This document shows, in pieces, positions 6,165-39,393 of a DNA stretch of 64,000 bases. The notes beneath the pieces are model-generated. The model did not search any database and was not told the DNA's origin. It saw nothing but the letters and a program-made list of their open reading frames with translations. Source of the stretch: a virus; the IMG/VR virus record IMGVR_UViG_3300034073_004654, positions 12,893-76,892 of that record, one strand, 5' to 3'. The first letter of the stretch is position 1. Each line of letters starts with the position of its first letter. A program made the translations under genes and the position numbers.

Positions 6165-6328
6165 GTCGATTACCCTTTAAACTCTTACATTAATATTTAA
6201 TTATTAGTAAAAAGTTAGCAGAAGCTTTAGAAGATCAACGAAACTAAATGGTTTTCCAGTCATCCAAAAAAGCCGACCCAGCTATTCCGAAAATTTGCCA
6301 CCCTAATAAACTATCTGCAATTAAAGCG

Positions 6329-6357
6329 TTGACTTGGAAAACATCCCGACTTATACT
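6329..6357 (+). promoter_or_regulatory. sigma70-like promoter
   Basis: TTGACT-17-TATACT. Confidence 0.75.
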
Positions 6358-6805
6358 GTAGATCGAGAGGTAGTACCATGCCGAAAATTGATCCTATTTC
6401 TGGTTGTTCTGTTATGACTATGACTGAGTTTTGGGCTGCTGAAGCTCAAAAGGAAGGAAAAGATGTAGCAGAAGTTATGGAAGATTTCCATAATGATATT
6501 GCTGCCGATGAGGAAAAGACTCGACAAGGAATGTTGAAAGATTTTTCGGGAGCTTTGGAGAAGCTTAAGGAATATTATGATCCTGAATATGATGATTCAG
6601 GATTGGTTCCGGTAGAAGTTCTGGAAATTACCGACGCTGATTGTTCTTATGGTTATAGCAAATCAAAGAGCAGCTTTGTCGCAAAGGTTCGATTTGAAGA
6701 TCAAGTGCGAAATGTTCAGTATTCCGAGGTTTCGCACAATGGCAGCTTTTACGAGCCGCCCGATTTTGAGGCTAATTGCGTAATTCTTTGAGAGGAGAAA
6801 ATATT

Positions 6806-7087
6806 ATGAATAAAACAATTCTTTTGGTTACGATCTTTTGTAGCGGTTGTGCAAAGGAAACAGTTGTCCAATCGCCAGATAAAGTAGTTGTTATTCAAGC
6901 TCCGTGCGGGTCAAATCCTGATAATTTTGATCAAGCGGGAAATATTCTTGTCAATGGGGCTCGTTGGACATATAATCAAGCAAAGAATACTTACGAATGG
7001 GTGTTTTCTGAGGAAAATCAGAAAAAAGCTATGGATTTGCTAACTGACGCTAAGAAGAAGGCTGAAAATTTCGTTCAATCGGAATAA
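6806..7087 (+). CDS. putative lipoprotein
   Basis: MNKTILLVTIFCSG-C signal peptide/lipobox; GAGGAG RBS. Confidence 0.55.
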   Translation: MNKTILLVTIFCSGCAKETVVQSPDKVVVIQAPCGSNPDNFDQAGNILVNGARWTYNQAKNTYEWVFSEENQKKAMDLLTDAKKKAENFVQSE

Positions 7088-8037
7088 AGGAGAAATATCA
7101 TGAGCGCAGATAATGCCATTGTTATTGGTAAGTTCCTAGTTAATGGAAAGGTAGCATTTTCCGTAGTAGAAACAAGTGCCATCGACAATGTTGATTATTA
7201 TCGAAATCGAGGCAATTCTCGAGAATTGCAAGAGTACGTTCATGATATTTGGAAGCGTGGAAAATTTTTCCTTGATGAAAAGGAAGCTTTGACTTATGCT
7301 CATACCACAAATAATGAGTGTGGAACCGAATACGGAGTAATCAGCATTGATTTCTCCGATATTTCTCCTATGCCAAGCTTGGTGAGTTTCGTGGATGCTG
7401 CAAAGTTTGCCGAAAACTATGAGTCAAAAGATATGAGAAAGACTCAGCCGGAAATCAAACTGGATAAAGAGTGGGTGGCTGAAACTCTAGGCATTTTCAA
7501 AGGTTTACTAGCAGCATGTCCAATGACCGAATCAAAAGAATTTGAGCTTTGGATGATGCACCAAATTCACAAAATGTGGCAAGACAAAAAAATTTCAGGA
7601 AATCAAGTAGCTTTGCTGTTGGATGAAGTTTGCTGTTACTGAGGTAATATGGAAAATCTAACTGTAGCAGAATTGTTGGCAAAGCGAGCTAAAGAAAAAG
7701 AACAAGGTGATTGGTATCCTGCTAGTGGAGGAACAGAAACTCCATTTCTTACTAGATCGAGACGCCGATTGCTGTATGTTTGGCAACCGTCTACTGGTAA
7801 ACATGCTTATTTGGACTGCGACACTGATCTAATTCTTTCAGATGAAGAAGCTGAAATAGCCTTGTCCATGTATTAAAAAAATCTTATTATGTGGTCTTGA
7901 CAAGATATTATCCGTGTTTATGTTAGCGGGAAGGGCAACACAGACCAAGAAAGAAATAATTATGTTGAGTTTAATTGAATTCCTGGTTGTTTCCAGTCTT
8001 TTGTCGGTTTCCTTTTTCTTTCAAGGATCGAATTAAA

Positions 8038-8292
8038 ATGGCTAAGAAGTGCAATTGTCATAAGAATCGAGAAGCTGCCGTTGCTAAAGGCATGGATTGG
8101 CACGAGGCTCATCGCAAATATTCTAAGTCTGGATATCATGAGCATCGTTGCGAGTGCAATTGTGGTTGTAAAAACGATACTCTTGGTTATAAGCATTGCG
8201 TAAGCTGTAGCTTTGACAAAAACTGTTGTAAACTCCGAGATCAAATTGGCATGAATATTCTTGGCTTGCCAGTTTTTGCCAGCGACAATTGA
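8038..8292 (+). CDS. Cys/His-rich small metal-binding protein
   Basis: 10 Cys in 84 aa (CNC, CECNCGC, CVSC, CC). Confidence 0.55.
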   Translation: MAKKCNCHKNREAAVAKGMDWHEAHRKYSKSGYHEHRCECNCGCKNDTLGYKHCVSCSFDKNCCKLRDQIGMNILGLPVFASDN

Positions 8293-8304
8293 TTTAGAGG
8301 GAAT

Positions 8305-8616
8305 ATGTTTGAAGTAGTTTACAATGATTGTTATGGCGGGTTTAGCCTAAGCAATAAAGCTCTGAATTGGCTTAAGGAAAATGGGATGGATTTGGGAGAT
8401 AATTGTTATCCTCTTGATAGCGAACTGCCCCGCCATCATCCTCTTTTGGTGAAATGTGTAAAAGAGCTTGGTCAGGAAGCTGGAAATCAATATTCTAATC
8501 TTGTTATTGCTGAAGTTTCCAGCAAATCTGGAAAATATTTGATTCGAGAATATGATGGATTGGAGTGGGTGGAAACTCCAGATTCTATTAATTGGGTAGA
8601 TGCAGCTGTTCTTTGA
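8305..8616 (+). CDS. conserved hypothetical phage protein
   Basis: VVYN.CYGGF.LS...RH.P.LV..V.ELG...EYDGLE.V pattern familiar from myophages. Confidence 0.7.
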   Translation: MFEVVYNDCYGGFSLSNKALNWLKENGMDLGDNCYPLDSELPRHHPLLVKCVKELGQEAGNQYSNLVIAEVSSKSGKYLIREYDGLEWVETPDSINWVDAAVL

Positions 8617-9703
8617 AAGGAAATATTATGTTTAATCTTGATACTTGTAAGAATCTTGGGAATCAATTTCAAGCGGAAGTTACTCCTTGCTACCAAGAAG
8701 ATAAGGTAAAAGGAGTTCATCTAAAACTTCGTAATTCTTGGACAGTTTCAATTCAGTGGGGATATGGAACTTATACTAACAATCGAAATTCTATGGAACA
8801 TGATTCTTGCGAAGATGCGGAAATTGCCGCTTGGGATCATAATGATGAATGGTATGATTTTGGTTATGACCAAGTAAAGGGCGGCTGTAATTTTGAGACA
8901 GTCAAAAACTTTATTAAGGAAATTGCCAGCAAACCAAGTCATCTAAACTAAGAAATATTGTTCCAATGCATTCTTTTACGATCTACTGGAGTTATAATTT
9001 TCCTTTTTGCCACGCTATTCCGCAAATTGGAACTACTATTGTCCGAGCAGAATCCAAAGAGAAGGCATTGGAACAATTCAAAGATATTGGTTATCCCACT
9101 ATTAGCCTTAATGGTAAAGGCTATTATAGAGTAGAGAAAATTGAATCAGGCAGTTTGATTAATTACAAGATATGATTTATTTTGTAATCTTGACTTTGAT
9201 TTTTTGTTTAATTTTTTCCATTGCATTAAGTTAATAATTTAACTTAATTAAGAGAGGTTAACGTGAAAATTAAACGTAGAAAAAAGAAAGAGCCAAGAAA
9301 CATTGTTGTAATGGATATGATTCTTAATCCAAAGGATTGCAAAATTACAAATCGAAATTCCAAAAGATTAAACAATCCAAGAAAAAAATTTTGGGATTTT
9401 GAAGATTGATAAGATCTTTTTTTGTGCCTTGACAAGAAATAAATCGTGATTAACTTGCTTGTAGTGGATGGCTTTCCACTATATACAAGGACATTATGAA
9501 TAAAATAATTGTTAATTTCGACAATGTTCGTCCTGGCGATGTTTTTGAAATTTGCGAAGATGGTAACTGGACGGCAATTAGTACGATTAAAAAGTCTGAC
9601 CCTGATAGTTTTGCAGAACTTTTAACAGCCTTGCAAAAGGGATTTGTTGATTTTGGAAGAATGGTTCCTTGTCGAGCTGTCCGATTTCTTAATTGATTAA
9701 ATT

Positions 9704-10150
9704 ATGCTCACTATTCAAGAGAAAAAGCAAGCCGTTCAATTAAAAAAGATTGCCCTGGATAAGCTTTCTTCTCATGGAATTCAAGACAAGTTTACTGTTA
9801 AAATTAAACCTGTTCAAAAGAACTGGGTAGCTCAATATCGGGGCAAGAGTCAGTTTTCTTCTGGCGGATCAATTTTTTGGCTTTCTTCTGAGTTGCTAAA
9901 TAATCCAGATGAGTTTGTCATTTCTGTTTTACATGAGTATGGTCATGTCATTGCAGAATTTGCTTGGATGCAAAGCCCTGATTTAAGTCAACTTATCCAA
10001 GATAATTGGAAAGGTGAATTTCATGGTCGTCCTTGGAACGAAGAAAATTTTGCAGAAGAGTTCGCTCAATATTTGGCAGGTAGATTCTGTTCTTCCAAAG
10101 AAATTCTGAATCAAGTAATTGTTCAATTTATTAAGGATGCATTAACGTGA
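9704..10150 (+). CDS. zincin-like metallopeptidase domain protein
   Basis: VLHEYGH plus downstream EENFAEEF. Confidence 0.65.
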   Translation: MLTIQEKKQAVQLKKIALDKLSSHGIQDKFTVKIKPVQKNWVAQYRGKSQFSSGGSIFWLSSELLNNPDEFVISVLHEYGHVIAEFAWMQSPDLSQLIQDNWKGEFHGRPWNEENFAEEFAQYLAGRFCSSKEILNQVIVQFIKDALT

Positions 10151-10527
10151 AAAATATTTTAATCAATGTTTCTGTAGCAGCAGTTACAGTTTTTCCATTT
10201 GTTTTTGGAATTGCTATGATTATTTTTTAGGAGGTTATTATGTTTTTGGCAAAGCTATATGACAAGGGAAGTGGAACTCCAATTTGTTTGGATTTTGAAA
10301 ACAAACCGCATTCTCATATTTTTCTAAATGGAAAACTTTATTCGCTGATTAATAATGAGCTTGTTTCTGAACATGGTTACAAACAAACTTATTATTATGG
10401 TCAATCGTATTTCGAGAGCGTTACTAGGTGATCTTGTTTACTTTCTTGCATTGCAGTGTTGACACTTAATTTTGAGTGGTTAAGTTCATTGTGTGGCTGA
10501 GAGTCACGCCTAACGGAGAGGTAATTT

Positions 10528-11250
10528 ATGAGCAAGAATAATTTTTCCGCCGCATACGTCAGCAATTCCAAGAACGTCAAGCTTTCCAAGACTGGAAAGG
10601 GTGTAGATGCTACTTATTCCAGCATTAAGGCTACCTGTCCTAAAGATTGTAAGCTTAAGAATGAGGGGTGCTATGCCCAAATCGGAAATACTTTCTTTAC
10701 CGTAAAGCGTTTGGATCAAAACGCTGGTAAGAAGTCTGGAATTGCGGTTGCCAATGAGGAAGCATTGGCAATTGATAATGCTTGGAAGGGCGGAAAGGTG
10801 CCTAATGGGCAGCTTTTGCGGCTTCATGTTTCGGGGGATTGCACTACGGATAATTCCGCAAAGATCGTTAGTAGTGCGGCAGAACGCTGGCTTAATCGTG
10901 GCGGAAAGAATGTTTGGTCTTATACCCATGCTTGGCGTAGGGTTAAGCGAAATTCTTGGGGTAAGGTCAATGTCCTGGCAAGTATGGAAAATCCCAAGGA
11001 CGGAAAGCTGGCAATTAAGCGCGGCTATGCACCGGCTTTGGTAGTGGGCTCTTTCAAGAACGATAAGGCATTTGTGAAGGAGGGAATTCGTTGGATTCCT
11101 TGTCCGGCGCAAACCAAGGAAAATGTAACTTGCGCTGATTGCAAGTTGTGTCATAATGTCGATAAGCTGGTAGAGCGTAATGCCGGAATTGCTTTTGAGA
11201 CTCACGGAGCCCAAAAGAATAAGGCAAAGCGTCATTTGACGGTTCTTTGA
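10528..11250 (+). CDS. Gp88-like Cys-cluster phage protein
   Basis: TCP..C.L...GCYA, LRLHVSGD, WSYTH, CPAQ....TC..CKLC. Confidence 0.65.
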   Translation: MSKNNFSAAYVSNSKNVKLSKTGKGVDATYSSIKATCPKDCKLKNEGCYAQIGNTFFTVKRLDQNAGKKSGIAVANEEALAIDNAWKGGKVPNGQLLRLHVSGDCTTDNSAKIVSSAAERWLNRGGKNVWSYTHAWRRVKRNSWGKVNVLASMENPKDGKLAIKRGYAPALVVGSFKNDKAFVKEGIRWIPCPAQTKENVTCADCKLCHNVDKLVERNAGIAFETHGAQKNKAKRHLTVL

Positions 11251-11959
11251 ATTGAAAAGGTAAGCTATTAATAGAATAGCGAGAATGGTTGCGAGGTTGG
11301 GGCAAACCATTCAAAGATTTAAGGAGGATAATTATGAGCTTTTCCTTTGTTTATAATGTGGAGCGATTGCGTCATATTGAAACGGGCAAATTGATCACTG
11401 AATCTCAATTTGAAAAAATGGCAGAGCTTCTTAATTTCGAAGTAGTAGCAATTGATGTATTAAATGCTCAATATGAGCTGGTAGACATATCCTTGGACGT
11501 AGAAGGAAGTGGATATTATTCTCCTGGTCGAATTCATGGCGATCCCTTGGATTGTTATCCTGAAGAATTCGAGTATGAACTTTGCTCTATTACCTATGAT
11601 GGTCAAGACTGGGAAAATTTGGTAACGGACAGTGAGCGAGAAGCTATTTTGGAAGAGCTTTCTGATAAAGTCTATCATGGAGAATAACCGTTAATGGTGG
11701 TTAAATTATGAATAATTATAAAATTCATTGGCGATTTTGTTTGTCTAATTGGCTGGCACATACTTTCCCCGATTCCGTTAAAACTGGAGTTGCAGAAGTT
11801 TCTGCTAAAAATACTTCCGAAGCAAAAATTAAATTTCGAGAAGCCGGATATTATGATGTAACCCAAGATAAGAATGGTTACTTTAGAATAGAAAATATTA
11901 TCCAATAACATCTGCACAATTACAAAAATTAAAATCTAGGATTAGAAAGAAATAATAAT

Positions 11960-12343
11960 ATGAAAATTTTAATCCTAGATGATATGAAACACAGACATGA
12001 TGCTTTTGATGAAAGATATTCTAGCGATCAAATTGATCATGCCTATACTTATTCTGATTTTTTAGATCTTCTTATAAATAAATCTCCCTATGATATCATC
12101 ATGCTAGATCATGATTTAGATGACTTGGTTAAAAATTATGATTATTATTATGATGGCTGGGGAAGAAAAAGACCCTATAACGGACAACACGCAGCTATAA
12201 AAGTTACAGAACTTCCCGAAGAATTGCTGCCTCAAAAAGTGATCATTCAATCCGTTAACAAACAAGGCGCTCAAGCCATATTTAATATCATTCAAAATCG
12301 TGGACTAGATGTGGTTTTGGAACCTTTTGATTCAAATCAATAA
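11960..12343 (+). CDS. divergent receiver-fold protein (cyclic-phosphate processing REC-like)
   Basis: KILILDD...R, IMLDHDL, NG, IQS.N..G motif set. Confidence 0.6.
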   Translation: MKILILDDMKHRHDAFDERYSSDQIDHAYTYSDFLDLLINKSPYDIIMLDHDLDDLVKNYDYYYDGWGRKRPYNGQHAAIKVTELPEELLPQKVIIQSVNKQGAQAIFNIIQNRGLDVVLEPFDSNQ

Positions 12344-12571
12344 TTATGATTTTTTCTGTTGATTATCTTAACGGTCTTTGGAAAATCAATATCAACAATT
12401 CTCTGGCAGAAAATGAGTTGTTTGATTCTTCTCTGAAAACATTAAATCAAAACTGCAAAATTAAATCAGTTTTTTTGAACAATACCGTTTGGGCTTTTGA
12501 GGATATTCGTATGTTTGCAGACGCATGTGTTAGCTTACGAGAACGTGGCTTTGTTCAAGATTAATTTAATT

Positions 12572-12605
12572 AAAAGCCCGTTGACATTATCGTCAACGGG
12601 CTTTT
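12572..12605 (+). terminator. intrinsic terminator
   Basis: AAAAGCCCGTTGAC-attatc-GTCAACGGGCTTTT. Confidence 0.8.
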
Positions 12606-13533
12606 CTTTATGATTGCAAGGAGATAAATATGGGATGGTTTGGTTACGGAATTTATGATGGAGATGAAACTCAAACTTGTCATTATGCTTATATCCGTTG
12701 GGCAAAGATAGAATCCAACAAAAAAAAGATCAATGACTGGCTAACTGTTTCTGGTACAGTCTTGCCAGAAGATAAACGTCAACTACTTGTTACAAATTCC
12801 AATCTAATTCTTAAAAAACTAAAGAAGCCTAAGTTCTGGGACGAAGAATCGGCTATTGAATGGCAAATGCTTTTAGCTTTGTTCGTCGATAATAATTTAG
12901 CGACTCCAGAACTAATTCATAATACTGGAGTTGAAGCTACTGAATTTCTAATGGGTCAACATGCCGAAGAATTCGACTCCCCCAGGAAACGAAAATATCG
13001 GTTGCGAAAGTTTTTGAACAAAGCAAAAGAATTGAGAAACTCATGATTTATCGAGTCTCTATCTTAACCGAACTTCTTGTCGAAGCCGATAACGAAACCG
13101 AAGCCCGCAAAATTGGCTTTAGGAATGTTGTTGAAGAAATCAAAAATGGAACAGCAAAGTTATATCGTATGGAGCTTTTAGAATCTCAAGAAGATTTAAA
13201 AGGAGATGAACGAGGCTCTTTACCTTGGCGTTCTTCCGATAGAAAAACTCTACCAGAGTTAAGGGTGGAAGAAATTTTACCATCAGGTTTGGACTTGTAA
13301 TCATGAATGATTTTAATATCTTCGGATTTCATTTCCACAAAACCAACCCCGGAGAAATCAGCCACCAAGCAACTTGGGTTTGTTTCTACGGGGATTGCTA
13401 TTTTCAAACCAATGACTCTTTAATTAAATTAATTTTAGAAATCATCAAAGAATATAAACAAGATAAGCATTTAACAGGATGATTATTCCTCATATTCATT
13501 CTCATCCTCATCATCTTAGTCTTCGTCTTCATC

Positions 13534-14655
13534 TTAGTCTTCGTCTTCATCCTCATCCTCATCCTTAATATATGAAAGGAATTTACCTAAATCATTATTA
13601 ACTAATTCTTCTTCCCACCCATGTTCAAAATAGTTTAATAATTCCTTCATTTTTGATAAACATCCAATCATCCAGCTTCTTAAAGCTGAGGAATCTGTCT
13701 GCTCTATGATAGATGATTCTGTAATTTTTTTATTATATTCATCAAAAATATTTTGTAATTTAAAAGCGTTCCATGCATTTGAAGATGTGAAACCTTCTAA
13801 TGGCTTTAAAGCAAAAGCTATAAAATTGTCCACATTGGACAGCATTTGATGTTTTAATTTTGACAATATACCATCTACCAATTGTTTTACTTTTGGCGGC
13901 ACTTCTTTGGATTTAGAAATATAACTTTCTGATAAATTTGGTTTGATTTTATCAAATTTATTTCTAAGCTCTGCTTTGGCAATATGAAATATTTCTTCAA
14001 TGGTTTGAATTATTTCTCTTTTAGAGTGCCCTTTAAAATTCTTTATGAATAAAAATCTTATATACCCAGCTAGTCCTTGAGAGGTTTCATTTATAGGCTG
14101 AAATCCGCTTAAAGATGAAGCTAAATCTTCATTTAACTGATCCATCAATGTAATAACTTCCTTATTATCTTTGTCTTTTTGAGTTGTTAATTGATTAACA
14201 AAGTCATGTTCTATTACTTGGTGAATTAAATCATGAATTAATATAAAAATAGGACTTTCAACATTTTCGCTTTTGGAATCTAGAACACCTTGATTTTCTA
14301 AATGATTTAAAATATCATAAGCGTTAATTTTTGGAAATTTCTGATTATAAGAATCGCAAATAAATTTAATTAATTCTTTGGTTTTATCGTGAGATAAATA
14401 AAATGACTTTATGTCCTTATCTGAAGAACTACCTATGATTCCATAATTAATTTCTAAATTCTTAATAGCATTTTTGATTTTATTATCGAAAATAGCAAAA
14501 TTATTTATATCGTTATTAATTTTTGCCATTCTATTGCCAAACCAAAGACCTGAATGTAATTTTTTACCGAGCGGCTCTCTTAACTGAAATAACTCAGGAG
14601 AAGCAGCCAGTTTGGCAAATAAATTAACAGCTCTATTTAACAGCTTAATATCCAT
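13534..14655 (-). CDS. leader-family putative virion protein with acidic tail
   Basis: Likely start MDIKLLNRAVNLFAKLA at 14655; AATA-N6-TATT at 14661-14674; HDLIH zincin-like motif; C-terminal DEDEDEDED. Confidence 0.75.
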   Translation of the reverse strand: MDIKLLNRAVNLFAKLAASPELFQLREPLGKKLHSGLWFGNRMAKINNDINNFAIFDNKIKNAIKNLEINYGIIGSSSDKDIKSFYLSHDKTKELIKFICDSYNQKFPKINAYDILNHLENQGVLDSKSENVESPIFILIHDLIHQVIEHDFVNQLTTQKDKDNKEVITLMDQLNEDLASSLSGFQPINETSQGLAGYIRFLFIKNFKGHSKREIIQTIEEIFHIAKAELRNKFDKIKPNLSESYISKSKEVPPKVKQLVDGILSKLKHQMLSNVDNFIAFALKPLEGFTSSNAWNAFKLQNIFDEYNKKITESSIIEQTDSSALRSWMIGCLSKMKELLNYFEHGWEEELVNNDLGKFLSYIKDEDEDEDED

Positions 14656-14700
14656 GAAATAATATCTTGATATTAACATATTAAACTTACAAAGGGCATT

Positions 14701-14976: not shown

Positions 14977-15063
14977 TATTGTTAATCGAATAATGTCATA
15001 GCTTTTTGTCATAGCTTGTCATAGCTTAAACTTACTATTAAGTGAATATTTTCATATTCAAAT

Positions 15064-31109: not shown

Positions 31110-31145
31110 AAAAAGCCCGCAGGAAACTGCGGGCTTTTTCTTTTG
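31110..31145 (+). terminator. intrinsic terminator
   Basis: AAAAGCCCGCAG-gaaa-CTGCGGGCTTTTT. Confidence 0.85.
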
Positions 31146-31405
31146 GTAAGCTACATCTTCTGCATTATTAATAACAGGAGATGTTATGGAAATTTTCGAA
31201 GAAGATACTGACAAAGATATTATTGAAGATAATATCATTCATGCTTTGCATTTAATTTTAAAAACAAAATGCAAATTCGAAGATCATGAAATTATTTCGG
31301 AGGAATTGGAGAAAGCGGAATTGGCTCTGGAAAATTTCTTGATTAAATTCTAATTTTAGAAAAACTAGGCTGGCTACTTTGGAAGATTCACTAATTGTGA
31401 GAAAT

Positions 31406-32773
31406 TTAAAATTCTCTGATTCGAGCTGGTGGCTTAACCGCAAGGGCTCTTGATGCTGCTTCTTCGAGATACTTTTTTAAATCTGGTTCAATATTTTTAA
31501 AAGAATTACCTTGTATTGCTCTGCTCATTTGATTTAAAAATGTAACTCCAAATAAATCGGATCCAGCCAGTTCAATCATTTGATTGATGCTCATTTGTTC
31601 ATTTGATTCAATATTTTTCTGCTCTATTTCCCTAGCCAAATTAATTATTGAAGATCCCAGCTTATTCATTTTAATGATCTCTGCGTAAATTTGGGAAATT
31701 TCTGATCTGGTTTTATTTTCCTTTATGATTTTCTCTTTAATGTTTTCTATTGAGTTTACTATTGATGATGAATGGCTCTTCATTTCTTGATATATTGTAT
31801 CTTTAGGTCTATTTAACCCAGGAGCACCAGCTTCTCCTTTTACTAAATATTTTTGCATTAAGTCATTAATTACTCTGCTATTATCTCTGCGTTCGGTGGC
31901 GGCTGCGGGAGTGGAAGAATTAGAGGGTGCGGTGCTTTGAGCGGGTTTTGCCCCTCTATAATATTCTAAATATTGTTGTCTCCATTCTTTGGAACCAAAG
32001 TCAGCCTTGCTTAATCTGGCTATTTTAGCTAAATTATTATAAATAGTAGTCCCTACAGAAGAAAGTTGTTTGTTTGTAGTTTCTAAAAACGCTTTATAAA
32101 ATGATGGTTTATCAGTTGGTGGGTTTGCAGAGCGATCATAAATTGATTTTAATAGCCTTGCTGCCATAAAGGCTGATTGCATATTATTAAATATTTGAGG
32201 GTTTATTTCTTTAAGATTTGAATTTCCATAGTTTGCCCACCAATTTTTTAATTGGACATAAACTTGCTTCCCATTTTCAGACCATGTTGGGTCAATTTTT
32301 CCTTTTGTAAAACTCAGCCCCGTAGTGGCTACATATTTAGCAGGCTCTAATAAAGAAGCTGCAATCTTGACTGCTGCCATTTTTGCTTTTTTAACATCCC
32401 CTGATTCTAATGCTTGTATTTGAGTTTCATTTTTTGGTGAAACTTTATTAGATGAAACTTTATTAGATGAAATTTCTTTAAATAGGTTAGGAAGATCTTT
32501 ATCAGAATAAAACTTTCCATTTGTAGGAATTGATTTAAAAGCATTGCTTTTTGTATCTCCTTTTACATACCAATATCCAGGATCTCCTAAAACCCAAAAA
32601 TAATAGATCTTATCTTTTATTAAGACCAAAGCCCCTCTGGTATTTCTTCCCGAAAATTCAAATCCAAAATCAGCCGCATATTGCCCAAGTAAAGACAAAT
32701 TAACATCTTTTAGTGGTGTATCTGCTTGTTGAGCCCATTTTAATAATTTTTTCATTCTTAATGAATAAGCCAT
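31406..32773 (-). CDS. leader-family-like large protein
   Basis: MAYSLRMKKLLKWAQ; AATA-N6-TATA at 32803-32816; internal KIA/SKA sites. Confidence 0.7.
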   Translation of the reverse strand: MAYSLRMKKLLKWAQQADTPLKDVNLSLLGQYAADFGFEFSGRNTRGALVLIKDKIYYFWVLGDPGYWYVKGDTKSNAFKSIPTNGKFYSDKDLPNLFKEISSNKVSSNKVSPKNETQIQALESGDVKKAKMAAVKIAASLLEPAKYVATTGLSFTKGKIDPTWSENGKQVYVQLKNWWANYGNSNLKEINPQIFNNMQSAFMAARLLKSIYDRSANPPTDKPSFYKAFLETTNKQLSSVGTTIYNNLAKIARLSKADFGSKEWRQQYLEYYRGAKPAQSTAPSNSSTPAAATERRDNSRVINDLMQKYLVKGEAGAPGLNRPKDTIYQEMKSHSSSIVNSIENIKEKIIKENKTRSEISQIYAEIIKMNKLGSSIINLAREIEQKNIESNEQMSINQMIELAGSDLFGVTFLNQMSRAIQGNSFKNIEPDLKKYLEEAASRALAVKPPARIREF

Positions 32774-32861
32774 GTATATTCCTCAAAGGTGTTATTATTC
32801 AATATATCTTAATATTGCAGCAATATATATTAATATTGCAACAACTTTGTTCAATTAGCTC

Positions 32862-32889
32862 TTGACACTTAATTATACCGCGCTATAGT
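32862..32889 (+). promoter_or_regulatory. sigma70-like promoter
   Basis: TTGACA-16-TATAGT. Confidence 0.7.
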
Positions 32890-33004
32890 ATATCTGCCTA
32901 GCGTAAGAATCTTTACGCTCAAGTAAAATCGTTGAACCAATTACAAATTCGTGTAAGTCAATTCAACATTATCAACAATATATAACAAATATTAAAGAGG
33001 TCAT

Positions 33005-33361
33005 ATGACAACATCAACTCGTTCACGTTCAACTCGCTCGACAGATTCATCAGAATCAACAACATCACGTTCAACTCGAACAGAACCTGCTTCACGCTCA
33101 ACTGCTCGTAAAACCGCTGCTAAAAAAACCACAAAACCTAAACCACCCAAAGATACCAAAAAACCCGTCAAACGTGCTTCTGGCACAGCCTCATCAGTGA
33201 CGAAACGAGCTACTAAAAAAGTAGCTTCAAAGTCAGCTCCTAAAGTAGCTCGTAAGACCGCTTCAAAAAGCCAAGACAAGGGCAAAGATGGCAAAAAGGG
33301 CGGCAAGGGAACCAAGAGCAAAGGTAAGCGAACAGAAACAGTTACTTCAACTGTAAGCTGA
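33005..33361 (+). CDS. histone H1-like / highly basic low-complexity protein
   Basis: Sequence dominated by K/T/S/R/A with TAAKK, KKVASK, ARKTA repeats; GAGG RBS. Confidence 0.7.
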   Translation: MTTSTRSRSTRSTDSSESTTSRSTRTEPASRSTARKTAAKKTTKPKPPKDTKKPVKRASGTASSVTKRATKKVASKSAPKVARKTASKSQDKGKDGKKGGKGTKSKGKRTETVTSTVS

Positions 33362-33696
33362 CTTTTTCCCTAATAATCATGCAGAGGAGAATAATTAAAC
33401 TCGTTCATTTGAAAAATAACTGGTGAAAATCCAGTCGCATGATATTTTTATGAAAATTAAACTATTAAATCCAATTCTTTATCTGATGGGCGACTATGAC
33501 GGCAAAACTGTTTATTTCGAATGCACCATGAAAGATCTTAGAGCCCCAGATAAAGAAGTTCAAATTTCTTGGATTGTTAACAGTGGAGAAGTTAAAGTAG
33601 ATTACATTCCCATTGGTTTAATTCAAAATATTCGGGAAGAAAAATTAAAGTAAATTTCATAATTTAAAATTATGATTTATATAGCATAATCATGCT

Positions 33697-34305
33697 ATGA
33701 TTTTAAAATCACGTCCTGGAAAATTAAATTTACCCTTAGTTTCTGCTCCTGCTCCAAGCTATTCTACTCCTGATACAAATTCAGAAAATTATAATAAAAA
33801 TAAATTACCCTCCGGATTAGAATCAGTTAAAATTTCTACTCCATCAGGATATACGGTTCCTTCTAGAATTCCTCCGGAAATTTTAGCCAAAGCTCAGTCT
33901 TTACTCAAAGCGAGAGCTTCAAAAAATTTACCATTTAATTATTCCGAAACTTTCTTCTTTGAAGAAGACGGAAAAATTAATGAATATCTTGCTTTGATTA
34001 CTTTGCATTTTGATAATCATCCCAAAAGATTTTTAGAATCTCTAGATGGAGAAAAAGAACCGCACCCGCCTTTTTGGCACCCTGGAGTTTCTATATTTAA
34101 AAAAATAAACGCTTCATCTTTAGAAGATAGAAAAAGAAAGAAAAAAATTAGAAAAGAAAAATCAAACAACTCCCTTCTGGAGGATGATTTAACAAAAAAT
34201 TTAGAACAATTTCTTGAAGAGAATTCTTCTTCAAATTTCAACGTTGAAAAACTTTCTTTCTTAGTTGAAGAGTTTAACAATTTAATTATTAAATTTTCAA
34301 AATAA
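33697..34305 (+). CDS. hypothetical protein with leader-like C-terminal helix
   Basis: Ends VEKLSFLVEEFNNLIIKFSK. Confidence 0.65.
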   Translation: MILKSRPGKLNLPLVSAPAPSYSTPDTNSENYNKNKLPSGLESVKISTPSGYTVPSRIPPEILAKAQSLLKARASKNLPFNYSETFFFEEDGKINEYLALITLHFDNHPKRFLESLDGEKEPHPPFWHPGVSIFKKINASSLEDRKRKKKIRKEKSNNSLLEDDLTKNLEQFLEENSSSNFNVEKLSFLVEEFNNLIIKFSK

Positions 34306-34307
34306 TT

Positions 34308-34673
34308 ATGACTGAATGGCAAGATAATCTTAAAAAGAAATATCCTTTAACCTTATCTCATCTAGGATATTTTGAATGTGATGAAGGTTGGTCATCTATT
34401 TTAGACGATCTTTGTTCAGTTATAGAAAACCATCTCAAGCATCAAAAGATTGAAGAGCACTATGCCGTTCAAGTAAAAGAAAAATTTGGCGGACTTAGAT
34501 TCTATATGAGTTCATATGATGAATTTATTGAAGGTGCTATTACTTTAGCTGAAAAACAATCCGTTCATATTTGTGAAGTTTGCGGTAATTCTGGTAAAAC
34601 AGAAAATCTAAAAGGCTGGTCTAAAACTCTTTGTTTAGAGCATTTAAACCAATTAAAAAAAGATGATCGATAA
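34308..34673 (+). CDS. conserved hypothetical phage protein
   Basis: C..GW...QVKEKFGGLRFY...CE.CG. Confidence 0.75.
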   Translation: MTEWQDNLKKKYPLTLSHLGYFECDEGWSSILDDLCSVIENHLKHQKIEEHYAVQVKEKFGGLRFYMSSYDEFIEGAITLAEKQSVHICEVCGNSGKTENLKGWSKTLCLEHLNQLKKDDR

Positions 34674-35367
34674 TTTTGAAACCAACATCAAAAGCATTAA
34701 GAAATTAATCTCTGTTATCTCTGGCAGAGATTCCGATGTAACCATTACTTATAAAGGCAATAGTTATGGAATTACTAAATGCTGGAACATTAAATGCGAT
34801 AATCGAGAATTAAATCACGAAAATTATCAATTGGGCGCAGAAGAATTAGTTGCAACTCTTAAAAAGGAATTGCAAGACAAAATTAATTCTGCCGAGCAGC
34901 AAGCCGCTAATTACCGTCAACTTCTTGGTGAACTAAGCAATTAATTTCAATGATGGCGATAATTTTGCATATTATTGATGTGGTGGGCATGGTTCCTCCT
35001 TCTAATAATATCATTTCTACCTTTGTTGTTAGATTGGCGGAATAGCTTATTAATATTATTATTCGTTCCTTTAATTATAGAATTTTATCTTTGCTATTGT
35101 AAAAAATAATTTCCATTGAGTTAATTAAAAGATATTATGATTTGATATATATTTTGAGGTAAATTATGATTGGATATGTACGACAATTAGATCTAGATGG
35201 AACTTTAAGAATTAGAGAATCGGATTATTCTTATTCTCCAACATTATTTGAAGGTAAATTTGATAGCAGCAATGTAGAAATTTTAACAGAAGCTTTTAAA
35301 AAAAGTTTGCCAGTAGAATTTGATGTTAAAGATGGCTGTTTAGTTTCGGCTAAAATCTTTAAACATC

Positions 35368-35769
35368 CTAAGATTTACTGATTCTTTTATCTAGTCTTTT
35401 TTCTTTAGCAATTTTCCAAATTTCTTCAAAGGTTTTTTCTTTTTTAAGAATTTGGCTAATATATTCGTCTATATTTACAGAATATTTGGTAAACGATCCG
35501 CCATGACCTATTCTTAGGTGGCACTCTTGAGTGCTCATACATAACGTAATTAAATTTTTAGGGTCTAATTCTAATTCTGGATAATCATCAAATGGCAACT
35601 TGTGATGCACTTGCAATCTTATTTTAGATCCGCAAGCGGCACAATGATTATTCTTTAGAAGAAATTCTTCTCTAACTTTCCTCCAATGTGGCGAACGTTT
35701 TTTTGTACTATGTAAATCTCTGGTGGCGTTTTTTAATAAGCTCCACCCATATTTAATAGTTTTAATCAT
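35368..35769 (-). CDS. HNH endonuclease
   Basis: W...R...C..CG....LQVHH..P...P.L..D..NLITLC...CH. Confidence 0.8.
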   Translation of the reverse strand: MIKTIKYGWSLLKNATRDLHSTKKRSPHWRKVREEFLLKNNHCAACGSKIRLQVHHKLPFDDYPELELDPKNLITLCMSTQECHLRIGHGGSFTKYSVNIDEYISQILKKEKTFEEIWKIAKEKRLDKRISKS

Positions 35770-35777
35770 TTGTTAGT

Positions 35778-36389
35778 TCAATAATATTTATTTTTTGATC
35801 TAACTTTCGCTGCTTCTGTATTGGGGACTATTGGTTTTTTGCTTCTTTTTTTCTTTTGGTCGGTAGCTTTTCTTTGTTTTGGAGTTAAGCTACGCCATTT
35901 CTTCTCTGGAAGATATCTGCCTTTGGCATCATTGGAATCTAACAAAATATCATTTGCTTTATTTTTATCTTTTTTCTTAGATTTTTTCTTGTAATCAGAA
36001 AGATACATCCATTTTTGCTTGGTCCACTTTTTCATTTTATTAGTTCTGGCGGTGGGTTTTTTACCACGATAACCGCCTCCACGTTGTTTATAAAGTTTAG
36101 TGGCAAGCTGCATTGCTCTGGCAGAATGTTTTCCGCCCATTCTAGATTTGGCTTCGCTTTTACACTTTGCCCATAAAGAAGGATTGGTTTTTGTGGCAAT
36201 TCCAGATTTTTTCTTTTGCTTCTTTTTAGCAGATTTAAAAATCTCTTCTTTTTTCATTTGGGCTTCGATTTGTTTTAAATCATCTAACAAATCTGAATAA
36301 GCCATTTCTTCTTGATATTTGTCTTTATAAATATCTGCCACTTCTTTAACGCTAAGGTCTCTAGATTGAGTGAATTGCTTAAAAGACAT
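35778..36389 (-). CDS. DUF5872-like basic protein
   Basis: P.LW.....G.HSAR..QLA...YK..GGGY.G, KW..QKW, RYLP...W..LT. Confidence 0.6.
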   Translation of the reverse strand: MSFKQFTQSRDLSVKEVADIYKDKYQEEMAYSDLLDDLKQIEAQMKKEEIFKSAKKKQKKKSGIATKTNPSLWAKCKSEAKSRMGGKHSARAMQLATKLYKQRGGGYRGKKPTARTNKMKKWTKQKWMYLSDYKKKSKKKDKNKANDILLDSNDAKGRYLPEKKWRSLTPKQRKATDQKKKRSKKPIVPNTEAAKVRSKNKYY

Positions 36390-36401
36390 TTTGTTCCGTT
36401 A

Positions 36402-36893
36402 TTAAAATCTTTTTCTTTGTTTTAGATATTCTTCCCGCAATTCTTTAGAAGAAAAATCTGTTTTATAATATTTTGAAGCTCTTATAATTTTCTCTGATGC
36501 TTTCAATGACGAATCTTTAATTGCGTTAGAGAGTTCTTCCCAATAACCCTGCCAAGACTCGGGCGATCCTTCATGCCAAGGAGTGCTTTGAAACAATTCA
36601 AATGCTTCTTTAGCTTTATTCATTTCTTCAAAAGCTTGATTTAAAAGCTTAGCTACTTCAGATCCAGCAGCAGATAACTTTGAATAAGATGTTAATTTCC
36701 ATTCTTTTAAAGAACGATAAATAAATTTTCCACTTTTACTCCACTCTGTAAAGTTCCACTCTTCCCCCATAGTATCGGGTGGAAGATTTTTCATGTTATT
36801 AATGACTTTAATATGAGGCATCAATGAATTAATAATTTTCATTGTTTGACTTGGTATATTTTCTAACATTGCTAATTTAATATTTTTATTCAT
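36402..36893 (-). CDS. leader-family-like protein
   Basis: MNKNIKLA; AATA-N6-TATT at 36914-36927. Confidence 0.6.
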   Translation of the reverse strand: MNKNIKLAMLENIPSQTMKIINSLMPHIKVINNMKNLPPDTMGEEWNFTEWSKSGKFIYRSLKEWKLTSYSKLSAAGSEVAKLLNQAFEEMNKAKEAFELFQSTPWHEGSPESWQGYWEELSNAIKDSSLKASEKIIRASKYYKTDFSSKELREEYLKQRKRF

Positions 36894-37012
36894 ATCTGTT
36901 CTCACTATATCATAATATGATAATATTGAGCGAAACTATCTTCTTAATGTGCTTGACATTAAATTGTTGCGCCTTATCTTGTTGTGTGTAAGTTGGTTTG
37001 CCAAGGAAAATT

Positions 37013-37600
37013 ATGAATACTCTAGAAAGAATTAAGAATGCATGTGATTGGGTCAATGCCAAGGGCAAGGGATCTAAGGATACTACTAAAGTAACTACTC
37101 AAGTAAAGTGGGCAGATTGGGAGCGTAAGTGGTTTTCGCCTGCGATGGCAGTTCTTTGGTATTCGGAAGTTCATCAGTCTGGCGAAAATGCTTACGATAC
37201 TTTTTGGATTCCAAATAATGCCACTTGGATTAGCAAGGTAGCTTCTTATCTTGAAGTTACTGAAGAATGGGTAGAGACATTTGTTAATCAATGTTATGGC
37301 AAGTGTCCTTCTGAGCAATATACATTTAGCATTACTTTTGATGGATTGGGACCAGATCCTTCCGGCTCATACAATAATGTTAGCTTGAAGAATCCTAAGT
37401 TTGAATTTCAAAAGGTAAATACTAATGTAGAAATGCTTGAAGAAGTCAGGTATTGTCTTGAGAATTACGGAGATATTTCATCGGGGGTTTCGGTTCCTTA
37501 TTGGACCAAGAACCCCCCAATTGAAGTATATAAGGGCAAGCTAATGAAGGCTGCTTATGAATTATTTGCGGCTATGGAAGCTTGCAATCATAATGATTAA
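37013..37600 (+). CDS. hypothetical early protein
   Basis: Promoter TTGACA-16-TATCTT at 36953-36980; AAGGA RBS. Confidence 0.7.
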   Translation: MNTLERIKNACDWVNAKGKGSKDTTKVTTQVKWADWERKWFSPAMAVLWYSEVHQSGENAYDTFWIPNNATWISKVASYLEVTEEWVETFVNQCYGKCPSEQYTFSITFDGLGPDPSGSYNNVSLKNPKFEFQKVNTNVEMLEEVRYCLENYGDISSGVSVPYWTKNPPIEVYKGKLMKAAYELFAAMEACNHND

Positions 37601-37605
37601 TTAAA

Positions 37606-38142
37606 TCAATCTTCTTCGTCATCTTCCTCGTCATCTTCTTCAATTTCTTTAAAGAAAACGGCGATGCCTCCTTCATATGCTGAATTTACTATATTGTAAT
37701 CAATATTATCAAGTGGGACATATTCTACATACATATCTTGATCGCTATATGTAGTATATTTTTTTAATAAACTTAAAGCATATGCCTTTTGCTCTTCAAT
37801 GCTTTTATATGGTTGTTCCGTAAACATGCCAAATCTAAAAACAAATGTCGGTTTTTTGCTGAAATAATTAGCGTCTGGTATTGCCATTGTAGATTCAATG
37901 ATGCATACTGGTGCGTCTGATCTGGGTGGCTTACCTTTTTGAGGTTTAAATACAGACTGCCTAGGAAATACAGTTTTAATTATATTTTTAGTAGATGGGT
38001 CTAAAAGTCCCACCCAAGAATCAAATATAGCTTTTTGCTGACCTTCGTCTTTGACCTTTGGAAGCTTTGCTATTTTTGTTAAGTATTCACTTGTTCTTCT
38101 TAATAAAAGATCGGAAGCTTTATTTAAAAAATCATATTTCAT
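37606..38142 (-). CDS. leader-family protein with acidic tail
   Basis: ...LLLRRTSEYLTKIA; AATA-N6-TATA at 38176-38189. Confidence 0.7.
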   Translation of the reverse strand: MKYDFLNKASDLLLRRTSEYLTKIAKLPKVKDEGQQKAIFDSWVGLLDPSTKNIIKTVFPRQSVFKPQKGKPPRSDAPVCIIESTMAIPDANYFSKKPTFVFRFGMFTEQPYKSIEEQKAYALSLLKKYTTYSDQDMYVEYVPLDNIDYNIVNSAYEGGIAVFFKEIEEDDEEDDEED

Positions 38143-38963
38143 ATTTAATTTCCTCTAGGCAATTATAACCGCTAATATATTTAATTATTATTATGTGCGA
38201 TAATATCCTATAATTATATAGGATATTTGTGAAGCTTCCATATGAATATGTTTCAAAACATGTAGAACTCTTATATCAAAAACAATTTAAATCTCATCAG
38301 ATTAGTGAAATTAATCAATGGTGTGATTTTATAATTGGATATATTGAGCTATGTGGCTGGACTACGGAAGAATATATAATTGCTATGTTTGAAGAATTAA
38401 GGAAAAAGCAAAAACCTCCTTAATATGAACCCTTGACAAGATAAAGAAGATGATTAAGCTAGGGTGGTCAAGGGCAACGGCTCATCAAATATGGAGTAAT
38501 TATGGATCTTAAAAGTTTAATCAATAAAAGCATTGAAACAAACAAGCCTGTAAAACTTTCGCCAAAGTTAACCTTGGCGGCGCAACAAAAAAACAATCAA
38601 GTTCTCGTAAAGTTAAGTATGCGTGGAAATTTAATTTGGACAGACTCTAATACACTGGATAAGATTACAGAAGATTTAGCAATTGAAATTGATAATTACG
38701 AGTGAATTTAATTATGAGTAAGCGTCGAAATTCTAATATGGACAATTTTAATGATGACTTTCAAAATCTTGATTTCAAAGATGATTTCTTTGAAGATCGA
38801 GAAGAAAACTTTGGGCGCAAGTTTCGAGAGAAAAATCTAAGAGACTTTAAGAAAGAGCGTCGTCGTCAAAAAGAATCATGGTAACAGTTGATGTGAAACT
38901 AACTACAATTTGACTCTTGACGCTATTAAGTTGATGGTTATCTTGTAATCAGAGGCAAGAGCT

Positions 38964-39302
38964 ATGCGTATTTGTATTGAGTGTGAAATTGAATTTGATG
39001 AGCGTTCTCCTGAAAAGCGCAGGGTTGGTGGATTGATTTCTTGTTGCCCAGATTGTAGCAAGGAAACTACTATTAAATATGCTGGTGTGCAAGCCGCTGA
39101 TGGCAAGCAGGCTCAAGCTACTATTTTGAAATTTAAGTCTGAGCAAGATAAGAAACAATATATTAATTTCTGGCAAAATAACAGTGGTTTCCATAAAGGA
39201 AAAAGTTGCCAGTTAGGAGCGCATCTTTCCACTACTCCTAACATAAGTTTTCAAACTATTACAGCCTTTAATCCTACTAATCATAAAGGCAAAGCTCTGT
39301 AA
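38964..39302 (+). CDS. zinc-ribbon protein
   Basis: CIEC...CPDC; promoter at 38917-38944. Confidence 0.65.
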   Translation: MRICIECEIEFDERSPEKRRVGGLISCCPDCSKETTIKYAGVQAADGKQAQATILKFKSEQDKKQYINFWQNNSGFHKGKSCQLGAHLSTTPNISFQTITAFNPTNHKGKAL

Positions 39303-39314
39303 CTAAAAATAATT

Positions 39315-39350
39315 AAAATCCCCAGGAAAAATCCTGGGGATTTTTTTATT
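39315..39350 (+). terminator. intrinsic terminator
   Basis: AAAATCCCCAGGA-aaaa-TCCTGGGGATTTTTTT. Confidence 0.85.
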
Positions 39351-39393
39351 TCCAGTTTAATAATATTAAGATATATTTGCATCGGAATAAAAT

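What the first reader, a model, noticed from the sequence alone, without database searches (positions are those of the whole stretch)
6192..39375. Candidate phage late promoter AATA-N6-YAT upstream of leader-family genes; palindromic copies sit between divergent genes
Seen within about 5-50 nt of the start codon: 6192-6205(-), 14661-14674, 15045-15058, 19496-19508, 20892-20904, 22096-22108, 22523-22535, 26705-26717, 28466-28479, 32803-32816(-), 36914-36927(-), 38176-38189(-), 39362-39374. I saw no TTGACA-type promoter in front of these genes. The AATA-N6-TATT form reads the same on both strands and lies exactly between the divergent pairs 14655-/14701+ and 28451-/28485+. Established: the jumbo phage AR9 non-virion RNA polymerase uses a short AACA-N6-TA late promoter with similar spacing. 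Inference: a phage-encoded RNAP or sigma factor recognises this motif. Caveat: AT-rich DNA gives chance matches, and 16852 and 18475 lack a perfect copy.
Basis: partly seen in the sequence, partly recalled or inferred. Interest (0 to 1): 0.72.

Follow-up and report, generated by a model that had tools for sequence, protein, structure and literature searches.

The report
Second promoter class of a megaphage
A short DNA signal (AATAWT, four bases, then C/T-A-T) sits just upstream of the genes for leader-tagged and virion proteins of an uncultured giant phage. It is most likely the phage's own middle/late promoter, an ordinary kind of element with a new sequence.

Summary
All 13 listed sites are in the sequence.

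**Enrichment.** AATA-N6-YAT is not enriched genome-wide, but it is 3-4 fold enriched in sense orientation within 60 nt upstream of start codons:
- 17 hits, against 5.0±2.2 in shuffles and 0-8 for other spacings.
- 12 of 20 leader-tagged genes carry it, against 5 of 138 others (p 2e-9).
- A blind motif search on the leader-gene upstream regions recovers it as yAATAWT-N3-a-YAT.

**Two gene classes.** The other class has near-consensus sigma-70 promoters (TTGACA-N17-TATAnT, almost all on the + strand) and different codon usage.

**Replication outside the contig.** The motif recurs in mosaic relatives. It also recurs in a second phage contig that shares the leader. That contig is distantly phage-G-like, and there the motif precedes tail sheath, virion-protein and baseplate-operon genes.

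**Best reading.** This is a −35-less middle/late promoter. AATAWT acts as a −10-like element and YA as −1/+1. It is probably read by host core polymerase with a phage sigma-like factor, not by an AR9-type polymerase.

**Limits.** No start-site data exist and no factor gene lies in this 21% fragment. About a third of the perfect matches may be chance.

The scan has noted late-promoter-plus-leader cassettes in other jumbo phages, with other motifs.

The parts
6193..6205 (-). AATAATTAAATAT, 28 nt before leader-A gene 5499-6164(-). One of four exact copies of this 13-mer in the contig.
14661..14682 (.). Compact two-way region in the 45-nt gap between 13534-14655(-) and 14701-14976(+). It holds AATATCTTGATAT on + (14661-14673), its mirror AATATCAAGATAT on - (14662-14674), and a second - copy AATATGTTAATAT (14670-14682).
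15045..15057 (+). AATATTTTCATAT, 6 nt before leader-B gene 15064-15732, with no ribosome-binding site between. A freshwater relative lacks this promoter-plus-gene block.
17749..17761 (+). AATAATTACACAT, 24 nt after a strong terminator (17693-17724) and 75 nt before 17837-18340.
18434..18446 (+). One-mismatch variant ATTAATTCGGTAT before leader-B gene 18475-19497. The relative L089 has ATTAATTCGACAT, a T-to-C change at the degenerate Y position.
19496..19508 (+). AATAATTGAACAT, 6 nt before leader-B gene 19515-20363. It overlaps the stop codon of the gene before it, so it may be an internal promoter or a chance match.
20892..20904 (+). AATAATTAAATAT, 24 nt before leader-A gene 20929-21732. The L087 orthologue has AATAATTAAACAT. 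A freshwater contig has AATAATTTCTTAT before the same gene in a different neighbourhood.
22096..22108 (+). AATAATCGGGCAT, 17 nt before leader-A gene 22126-22491. It overlaps the previous stop codon. The paralogue in L087 carries AATAATTTCATAT.
22523..22535 (+). AATAATTATTCAT, 8 nt before the likely true start (22544) of a lipoprotein-like gene.
26705..26717 (+). AATAATTCCTTAT, 8 nt before leader-B gene 26726-28021.
28466..28479 (.). Palindromic copy in the 33-nt gap between 28089-28451(-) and 28485-28733(+). The - reading AATATTCTCCTAT lies 15 nt before 28451, upstream of that gene's ribosome site. The + reading holds the ribosome site (GGAG) of 28485 inside its N6, so it is doubtful as that gene's promoter.
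29195..29207 (+). One-mismatch variant TATATATTGGTAT before leader-B gene 29219-29623.
32804..32837 (-). Two copies, AATATTAAGATAT (32804-32816) and AATATTAATATAT (32825-32837), 30 and 51 nt before leader-B gene 31406-32773(-). The + strand of the same gap holds a sigma-70 promoter (32862-32891) for 33005+.
36915..36927 (-). AATATTATCATAT, 21 nt before the first gene of the three-gene minus-strand unit 35368-36893. A sigma-70 promoter for the + neighbour lies at 36953-36980.
38177..38189 (-). AATAATTAAATAT, 34 nt before leader-B gene 37606-38142(-).
39362..39374 (+). AATATTAAGATAT, 17 nt after a strong two-way terminator (39315-39344) and 19 nt before 39394. It heads the leader-gene run 39394-43784.
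41426..41438 (+). AATATTCCAATAT inside the 3' end of the preceding gene, 55 nt before leader-B gene 41494-42267. Possible internal promoter.
45508..45520 (+). AATAAGCGGGCAT, 41 nt before 45562-45753.
550..63205 (+). Contrast class: at least 27 sigma-70-type early promoters (c)TTGACAag-N17-(g)TTATAnT. All are on the + strand, for example at 550, 828, 6329, 7897, 16911, 24199, 29644, 32862, 36953 and 63177.

Best explanation
yAATAWT-N3-a-YAT is the core of a second, -35-less promoter class of this phage. It drives the genes that do not have sigma-70 promoters: the leader-tagged 'cargo' genes here, and virion genes in a relative.

Proposed working: early genes are read by unmodified host sigma-70/sigma-A polymerase from TTGACA-N17-TATAnT promoters. 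Later, a phage-supplied sigma-like specificity factor, or a factor that re-targets the host holoenzyme, directs the host core enzyme to AATAWT. AATAWT acts as a -10-like element, with A and T at the two positions that sigma-family proteins flip out. Transcription starts 5-6 nt downstream at the A of YAT (Y = -1, A = +1).

Shown: the motif, its enrichment, its orientation and position, its link to one gene class, and its recurrence in relatives.

For: (1) Enrichment in the right place and orientation.
- 17 vs 5.0±2.2.
- 12 of 20 leader genes vs 5 of 138 others, Fisher 1.8e-9. Composition-matched shuffles of the leader upstream regions give 1.65±1.18.

(2) Blind expectation-maximisation on the 20 leader upstream regions returns ttAATAaTtnnaTAT. 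Log-likelihood is 73.2 against 46.2±3.1 for shuffled input.

(3) Promoter logic.
- Six of the eight minus-strand units in the window must have their own promoter and carry the motif.
- In three divergent gaps the minus gene has the motif and the plus gene has a sigma-70 promoter.
- Two copies follow strong terminators.
- Wherever a ribosome-binding site exists, the motif lies upstream of it.

(4) An independent property splits the classes. ATA+AGA+TTA codons have a median of 0.5% in sigma-70-promoter genes and 9.35% in motif genes, p 3.6e-6.

(5) Replication.
- In L087, 3 of 3 leader-A genes have the motif, two of them with non-homologous flanks.
- A freshwater contig has AATAATTTCTTAT before gene 20929 in a different context.
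- The second contig, G001, was found through the leader alone. It has the motif before 12 of 57 genes vs 3.5±1.7 in shuffles (0 of 2000). These include tail sheath, a virion protein, a 1763-aa gene and the head of a baseplate-J operon.

(6) No conserved -35 block in 32 aligned sites.

(7) Phage G is the cultured relative of G001 (major head protein 52% identical). It encodes sigma-70-like factors (PMC12484599). Its own sigma-A-type promoters have a strongly conserved T-A-T start region 5 nt after the -10 hexamer.
Against: - There are no transcription start data. No RNA run holds the sequence.
- The motif has low information: 76 matches in 77 kb, 44 of them inside coding sequence. About 5 of the 17 upstream matches are expected by chance.
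- The motif was chosen after looking at these same genes, and the blind dyad scan alone is not significant after correction.
- A blind motif search on G001 did not return it.
- Phage G itself shows no enrichment of this motif.
- Eight of 20 leader genes lack a perfect copy. 16852 and 63091 have none at all.
- About a third of sites lie only 3-10 nt before the ATG, which would give very short messages without a ribosome-binding site.
- G000 and G001 share only the leader and a transposase, so their kinship is not proven.
Confidence: 0.55

Rival explanations
1. The motif is the promoter of a phage-encoded RNA polymerase. This could be a split multisubunit enzyme of the AR9/phiKZ non-virion type, or a single-subunit enzyme. 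It would read A(-11)ATA(-8)-N6-Y(-1)A(+1) as one bipartite signal.
For: - The geometry is the same as the AR9 late consensus A(-11)ACA-N6-U-A/G(+1) (PMC7598289).
- Both blocks are about equally conserved and the spacer is not, which is unusual for sigma-type promoters.
- The genome is of jumbo size (CheckV 21% for 77 kb).
Against: - Early genes carry near-consensus sigma-70 promoters, so the phage depends on host polymerase, unlike AR9 and phiKZ.
- AACA-N6-TW is not enriched.
- No Rpb1, Rpb2 or T7-type polymerase domain is in the fragment. This is inconclusive at 21% of the genome, and the T7 control did not ring.
- The phage-G paper (PMC12484599) lists sigma factors and, in the passages I read, no phage polymerase. 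I did not search phage G for polymerase domains.
Confidence: 0.15
2. These are weak -10-only promoters read by the unmodified host housekeeping holoenzyme. AATAAT would be a near-consensus TATAAT, giving low constitutive expression with no phage factor and no temporal switch.
For: - AATAWT matches TATAAT at 5 of 6 positions.
- Three imperfect sites have TATA instead of AATA.
- AT-rich upstream DNA could act as an UP element.
Against: - A, not T, is preferred at the first position (17 vs 5 upstream hits). The phage's own sigma-70 promoters always have T there.
- No TGn extension: 1 upstream hit of TGnTATAAT.
- The sharp split in codon usage and strand between the classes suggests separate regulation.
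- Virion genes in G001 carry the motif.
Confidence: 0.1
3. The motif is not a promoter. It would be an operator for a dimeric DNA-binding regulator (AATA-N6-TATT), or an RNA-level signal in the 5' leader such as a processing or translation element.
For: - Some copies are palindromic and sit between divergent genes.
- Many copies lie very close to the start codon (3-10 nt).
Against: - The 14th base, which palindromy would require to be T, is T in only 7 of 17-18 upstream sense sites.
- Orientation is biased to sense.
- In the 45-nt and 33-nt divergent gaps there is no room for another promoter upstream of the motif.
- Distance to the start codon varies from 3 to 60 nt, which argues against a translation signal.
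Confidence: 0.07
4. Chance matches in AT-rich DNA, plus copies inherited through duplication of leader genes together with their upstream regions.
For: - Low-information motif with no genome-wide excess.
- Leader-A genes are paralogues.
- Orthologous upstream regions in relatives are 87-95% identical throughout, so they say little.
Against: - Shuffles and spacing controls.
- Between paralogues the sequence and length between motif and ATG differ (16-34 nt) while the motif is kept.
- Leader-B genes are too divergent for shared upstream ancestry.
- The pre-specified test on G001 is positive.
Confidence: 0.08

Closest known systems
AR9 non-virion RNA polymerase late promoter, A(-11)ACA-N6-U-A/G(+1) (PMC7598289; PMC5312081)
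   Same: Short bipartite signal with a four-base block, a six-base unconserved spacer, then pyrimidine-purine at the presumed -1/+1. No -35 element. Found in a jumbo phage.
   Different: The third base is T, not C, and AACA-N6-TW is not enriched here. AR9 reads uracil on the template strand with its own split polymerase and does not use host polymerase. This phage has sigma-70 early promoters, and no polymerase gene was found.
T4-type late promoter TATAAATA read by gp55, and its ATAAATA relative in Rak2/CBB-like jumbo phages (PMC2988020; PMC5259590)
   Same: A -35-less, -10-only late promoter in a phage that uses host sigma-70 promoters for early genes. Precedes virion genes.
   Different: The sequence differs: TATAAATA has 0 sense hits upstream of genes here. 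The T4 start region is not conserved, whereas here YAT is as conserved as the first block.
Phage-encoded sigma factor cascades of Bacillus phages (SPO1 gp28 and gp33/34; own knowledge) and the sigma-70-like factors of phage G (PMC12484599)
   Same: Host core polymerase is re-targeted by phage sigma factors to promoters unlike the host consensus. The cultured relative of the leader-sharing contig is phage G, which has such genes.
   Different: SPO1 promoters are bipartite -35/-10. No -35 block is seen here. No sigma gene is present in the fragment. Phage G's own promoters differ and its late promoters are not defined.
-35-less middle/late promoters of Thermus phage P23-45 (own knowledge, not checked here)
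   Same: Early-to-late switch from -35/-10 promoters to promoters that need only a -10-type element.
   Different: Those carry a TGn extended -10. Here the base before the hexamer is T/C and there is no TG.
PeSL promoter-plus-stem-loop cassettes that shuffle small genes in T4-type phages
   Same: Promoter-headed small genes differ in presence and position between close relatives.
   Different: Here the shared module is this promoter plus an N-terminal leader. I did not map recombination junctions to the motif.

Membership tests
AR9/phiKZ-type non-virion polymerase late promoter | Consensus AACA-N6-T-A/G (AR9) or TATG at the start (phiKZ) | tested here: not met
   AACA-N6-TW has 10 of 179 hits in the upstream sense space, which is the chance level. 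TATG has 39 sense vs 39 antisense. The motif here has T at the third position.
AR9/phiKZ-type non-virion polymerase late promoter | The phage encodes split beta/beta' polymerase subunits | tested here: inconclusive
   No Rpb2_6 or Rpb1_2 match in the 76.9-kb contig. The contig is about 21% of the genome.
AR9/phiKZ-type non-virion polymerase late promoter | Early transcription independent of host polymerase (AT-rich virion-polymerase promoters) | tested here: not met
   At least 27 near-consensus TTGACA-N17-TATAnT promoters precede early-type genes.
T4-type late promoter (gp55) | TATAAATA (or ATAAATA) centred at -10 before late genes | tested here: not met
   TATAAATA has 0 sense hits and ATAAATA has 2 of 35 in the 60 nt upstream of genes.
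Sigma-70-family -10 element | Hexamer with A at the second and T at the sixth position | tested here: met
   The second base is A in all 32 sites, but the search pattern fixes it. The sixth is T in 22 of 32 and the fifth is A or T in 32 of 32, and the pattern does not fix either.
Sigma-70-family -10 element | Start site 6-8 nt after the hexamer, purine preceded by pyrimidine | not testable with these tools
   YAT lies 4 nt after the hexamer, which puts its A at the sixth base after the hexamer. No RNA run holds the sequence.
Extended -10 (-35-less) promoters | TGn immediately upstream of the hexamer | tested here: not met
   The base before the hexamer is T or C in 28 of 32 sites, and the base two before is mixed. 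TGnTATAAT has 1 upstream hit.
Phage sigma-factor-dependent promoter | A sigma-factor gene in the phage | tested here: inconclusive
   No Sigma70_r2 match in G000 or G001, and no r4 match in G000. Both are fragments (21% and 15%). Phage G has Sigma70_r2 matches at 45763-45915 and 218550-218711.
Late (virion-gene) promoter | Precedes structural genes | tested here: met
   This holds in the leader-sharing contig G001 only: before tail sheath (phrog_2839), a virion protein (phrog_985) and the head of a Baseplate_J operon. No structural gene could be recognised in the window itself.

The most novel reading that the evidence does not exclude
The motif and the N-terminal leader together form a portable 'express late and load into the particle' cassette that megaphages of this lineage exchange. 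The motif is read by a sigma-like or polymerase factor of a new specificity (A instead of T at the first hexamer base, with a required Y-A-T start). For about a third of the genes it produces 5-12-nt messages without a ribosome-binding site, which would point to an unusual mode of translation initiation late in infection.
Probability: 0.2. Interest if true: 0.6.

Novelty: new member of a known kind. Interest (0 to 1): 0.45.

Why it matters
Megaphages related to phage G are almost all uncultured and their gene timing is unknown. A validated late-promoter signal would:
- sort hundreds of unknown genes into early and late sets directly from sequence;
- mark the leader-tagged proteins as a co-regulated, probably virion-associated set;
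- give a handle for finding the factor that switches the host polymerase.

The kind of element is textbook. Only the sequence, and its coupling to the leader cassettes, is new.

Tried and rejected
- **Close relatives for footprinting.**
  - blastn against cultured phages found nothing.
  - IMG/VR searches with the proteins at 42297 and 24709 found nothing.
  - The 455-aa protein at 31406-32773(-) has no homologue but itself among 5.8 billion proteins.
  - The protein at 20929 pulled in 592 loci through a common domain, but those lack the leader.
  - A back-translated leader pattern gave two chance hits.
  - GTDB genomes gave nothing.
- **RNA evidence.** No RNA holder is listed for the stretch, so no start-site test was possible.
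- **Reader genes.** Searches for Sigma70_r2/r4, Rpb2_6, Rpb1_2 and the T7-type polymerase domain found nothing in the fragment. The T7 family control rang nowhere, so that search says nothing.
- **Function of leader and early proteins.** Pfam and PHROG scans of about 60 proteins gave almost no functions.
- **Blind motif search on G001** returned G/C-containing noise, not the motif.
- **Phage G itself** does not use this motif. N6 is not enriched there. It has its own promoter family instead.
- **Rejected readings.** T4-type TATAAATA, the AR9 consensus and the Bacteroidota -7 motif. TATAAT-only promoters: several apparent copies are the reverse strand of sigma-70 promoter spacers. Palindromic operator.
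- **Parts of the window without cover in runs X5-X8** are not used as evidence.

Full report
**Setting.** The window is bases 12893-76892 of a 76,892-bp IMG/VR viral contig that CheckV rates 21% complete, so the phage is probably around 360 kb. It comes from subsurface metagenomes, and partial look-alikes occur in freshwater runs. G+C is about 35%. Most proteins have no family match.

**The observation.** All 13 sites are present as described.
- On the whole contig, AATA-N6-YAT occurs 76 times on both strands. That is no more than the same words at other spacings (44-99).
- 17 copies lie in sense orientation within 60 nt upstream of my 159 ORF calls. Dinucleotide-preserving shuffles of those same regions give 4.95±2.23 (0 of 1000 reach 17), and spacings N2-N11 give 0-8.
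- Relaxing each fixed base in turn shows the stated base is the preferred one at every position.
- A blind scan of all 4-mer/gap/3-mer dyads ranks the sigma-70 promoter first, then the ribosome-binding site, then AATA-N6-TAT (13 vs 3.2). That nominal p of 2e-5 would not survive correction for the number of dyads.
- The sharper form AATAWT-N3-A-YAT has 17 copies, 11 of them in the roughly 6% of strand space just upstream of genes.
- The exact 13-mer AATAATTAAATAT occurs four times.

**Two gene classes.**
- The contig is full of near-consensus sigma-70 promoters, (c)TTGACAag-N17-(g)TTATAnT, with at least 27 in the window. All of these lie on the + strand.
- In three divergent gaps (6165-6377, 32774-33004, 36894-37012) the plus gene has a sigma-70 promoter and the minus gene has the AATA motif.
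- Six of the eight genuine minus-strand units in the window carry the motif upstream. Each of these needs its own promoter.
- Two copies (17749, 39362) follow strong terminators.
- The classes also differ in a property unrelated to the motif. ATA+AGA+TTA codons make up a median 0.5% of sigma-70-promoter genes and 9.35% of motif genes (p 3.6e-6).

**Link to the leader genes.**
- Twenty genes begin with one of two N-terminal leader types, MSLKxxIKVANYYxVKY or MxKIxKxLxxxxxFxxLVK.
- Twelve of them have the motif within 60 nt, against 5 of 138 other genes (Fisher 1.8e-9). Shuffles of the leader upstream regions give 1.65±1.18.
- A blind expectation-maximisation search on those 20 regions returns ttAATAaTtnnaTAT with log-likelihood 73.2, against 46.2±3.1 for shuffled input. 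It also proposes one-mismatch copies (TATA- or ATTA-N6-YAT) for several genes that lack a perfect one.
- 16852 and 63091 have nothing convincing.

**Evidence from other DNA.**
- *Freshwater contigs.* Freshwater metagenome contigs at 85-97% identity show that leader genes come and go between relatives. One such contig places gene 20929 behind a different gene, with AATAATTTCTTAT 16 nt before its ATG. This rests on a single contig laid at 80% likeness.
- *L087.* This JGI contig has three leader-A genes. All carry the motif (AATAATTTCATAT, AATAATTAAACAT, AATATTGAAATAT), two of them in flanks that do not align to the window.
- *L089.* The site before 18475 changes T to C exactly at the degenerate Y.
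- *G001.* A search with an alignment of nine leaders found a different 78,264-bp viral contig, G001, which CheckV rates 15% complete.
  - Its leader-A gene has AATAATTAAGCAT upstream.
  - In this hold-out contig, 12 of 57 genes have the pre-specified motif within 70 nt. Shuffles give 3.5±1.7, and 0 of 2000 reach 12.
  - N6 gives 13 sense hits, against about 5 for other spacings once overlaps with TATAT are removed.
  - The genes behind it include tail sheath, a virion protein, a 1763-aa protein and the first gene of an operon with a Baseplate_J protein.
  - The G001 major head protein is 52% identical to that of Bacillus phage G.
  - G000 and G001 share only the leader and a TnpB, so their kinship rests on the leader.

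**Anatomy and likely working.**
- Thirty-two aligned sites give yAATAWT-nnn-a-YAT, with no conserved block anywhere from -38 to -2.
- The first six bases match the sigma-70-family -10 hexamer at five positions, including the two bases that sigma proteins flip out. They have A, not T, at the first position. The phage's own sigma-70 promoters always have T there.
- YAT follows after four bases. That puts its A six bases after the hexamer, with a pyrimidine before it, which is a normal start configuration.
- Wherever a ribosome-binding site is present it lies 6-8 nt or more downstream of YAT, so a start at YA keeps it in the message.
- Phage G's abundant sigma-A-type promoters (GTTTACA-N17-TGATATAAT) also carry an almost invariant TATAA start block five bases after the hexamer. 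So a conserved start region is compatible with sigma-type promoters in this group.
- Phage G encodes sigma-70-like factors (PMC12484599).
- I therefore favour host core polymerase plus a phage sigma-like factor.
- The AR9 analogy is geometrically exact (PMC7598289). It fits poorly with host-dependent early transcription and with the lack of enrichment of the AR9 consensus itself.

**Weak points.**
- The motif is short, and roughly a third of the perfect upstream matches are expected by chance. The likeliest chance hits are:
  - 19496 and 22096, which overlap stop codons;
  - the plus reading of 28466, which contains its gene's own ribosome site;
  - the second overlapping copy at 20900.
- About a third of sites lie 3-10 nt from the ATG and would give very short messages without a ribosome-binding site.
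- Palindromy is incidental.

**Tool limits.** No RNA run holds the stretch.

**Verdict.** This is a real, replicated upstream signal, best read as the phage's middle/late promoter. It is a new sequence of a well-known kind of element.

Noticed in passing
window 550-63205, + strand: Family of at least 27 near-identical sigma-70 early promoters, (c)TTGACAag-N17-(g)TTATAnT. They lie in front of short genes almost free of ATA/AGA/TTA codons.
   Followed up: partly
window 15033-15777 and 15941-16894; L087:199-744; L089:2281-3503: Leader genes behave as variable cassettes. Freshwater relatives lack 15064-15732 and 15941-16852(-). L087 has an extra leader-A gene with its own motif and an AT-rich hairpin after it. 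L089 has an extra leader-B gene inserted just upstream of the 16852 orthologue.
   Followed up: partly
window 52192-56664: The phage carries the DUF444 (YeaH/YhbH), SpoVR and PrkA trio (E 1e-108 to 1e-138). This is a host stress or sporulation-linked module.
   Followed up: partly
L090:717-1934 (+), 20 nt before a fourth exact AATAATTAAATAT at L090:1954-1966 (-): A TnpB (OrfB_IS605 + Cas12f1-like TNB) gene lies between that motif copy and leader-A gene L090:152-565(-). The element may have split the promoter from its gene, or the copy may lie inside the element's end.
   Followed up: no
phage G, NC_023719.1, mainly 355-476 kb (L116-L122): 69-80 copies of one long promoter, acaGTTTACAaa-N14-TrTGATATAAT-aaAta-TATAA, precede small genes. 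This is a very uniform sigma-A-type (probably early) class with a conserved start block. I saw no description of it in the phage G paper passages I read.
   Followed up: partly
window 15064, 19515, 28485, 14655(-); G001 54003: The distance from YAT to ATG is exactly 6 nt in five cases, with no ribosome-binding site. If the start is at YA, the 5' leaders would be 8 nt long.
   Followed up: no
G001 70770-71783(-), 73124-75613(-), 75606-76661(-), 54368-55063(-): The major head protein and several neighbours in G001 begin with helices that resemble the leader-B type (for example MNKHRFYLLKKIA..., MSKKLFDKINLFFKLAS...).
   Followed up: no
window 22096, 45508; G001 about 55085: A recurrent GGGCAT ending (AATAATCGGGCAT, AATAAGCGGGCAT, TATATTGGGCAT) may be a sub-type of the motif.
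   Followed up: no
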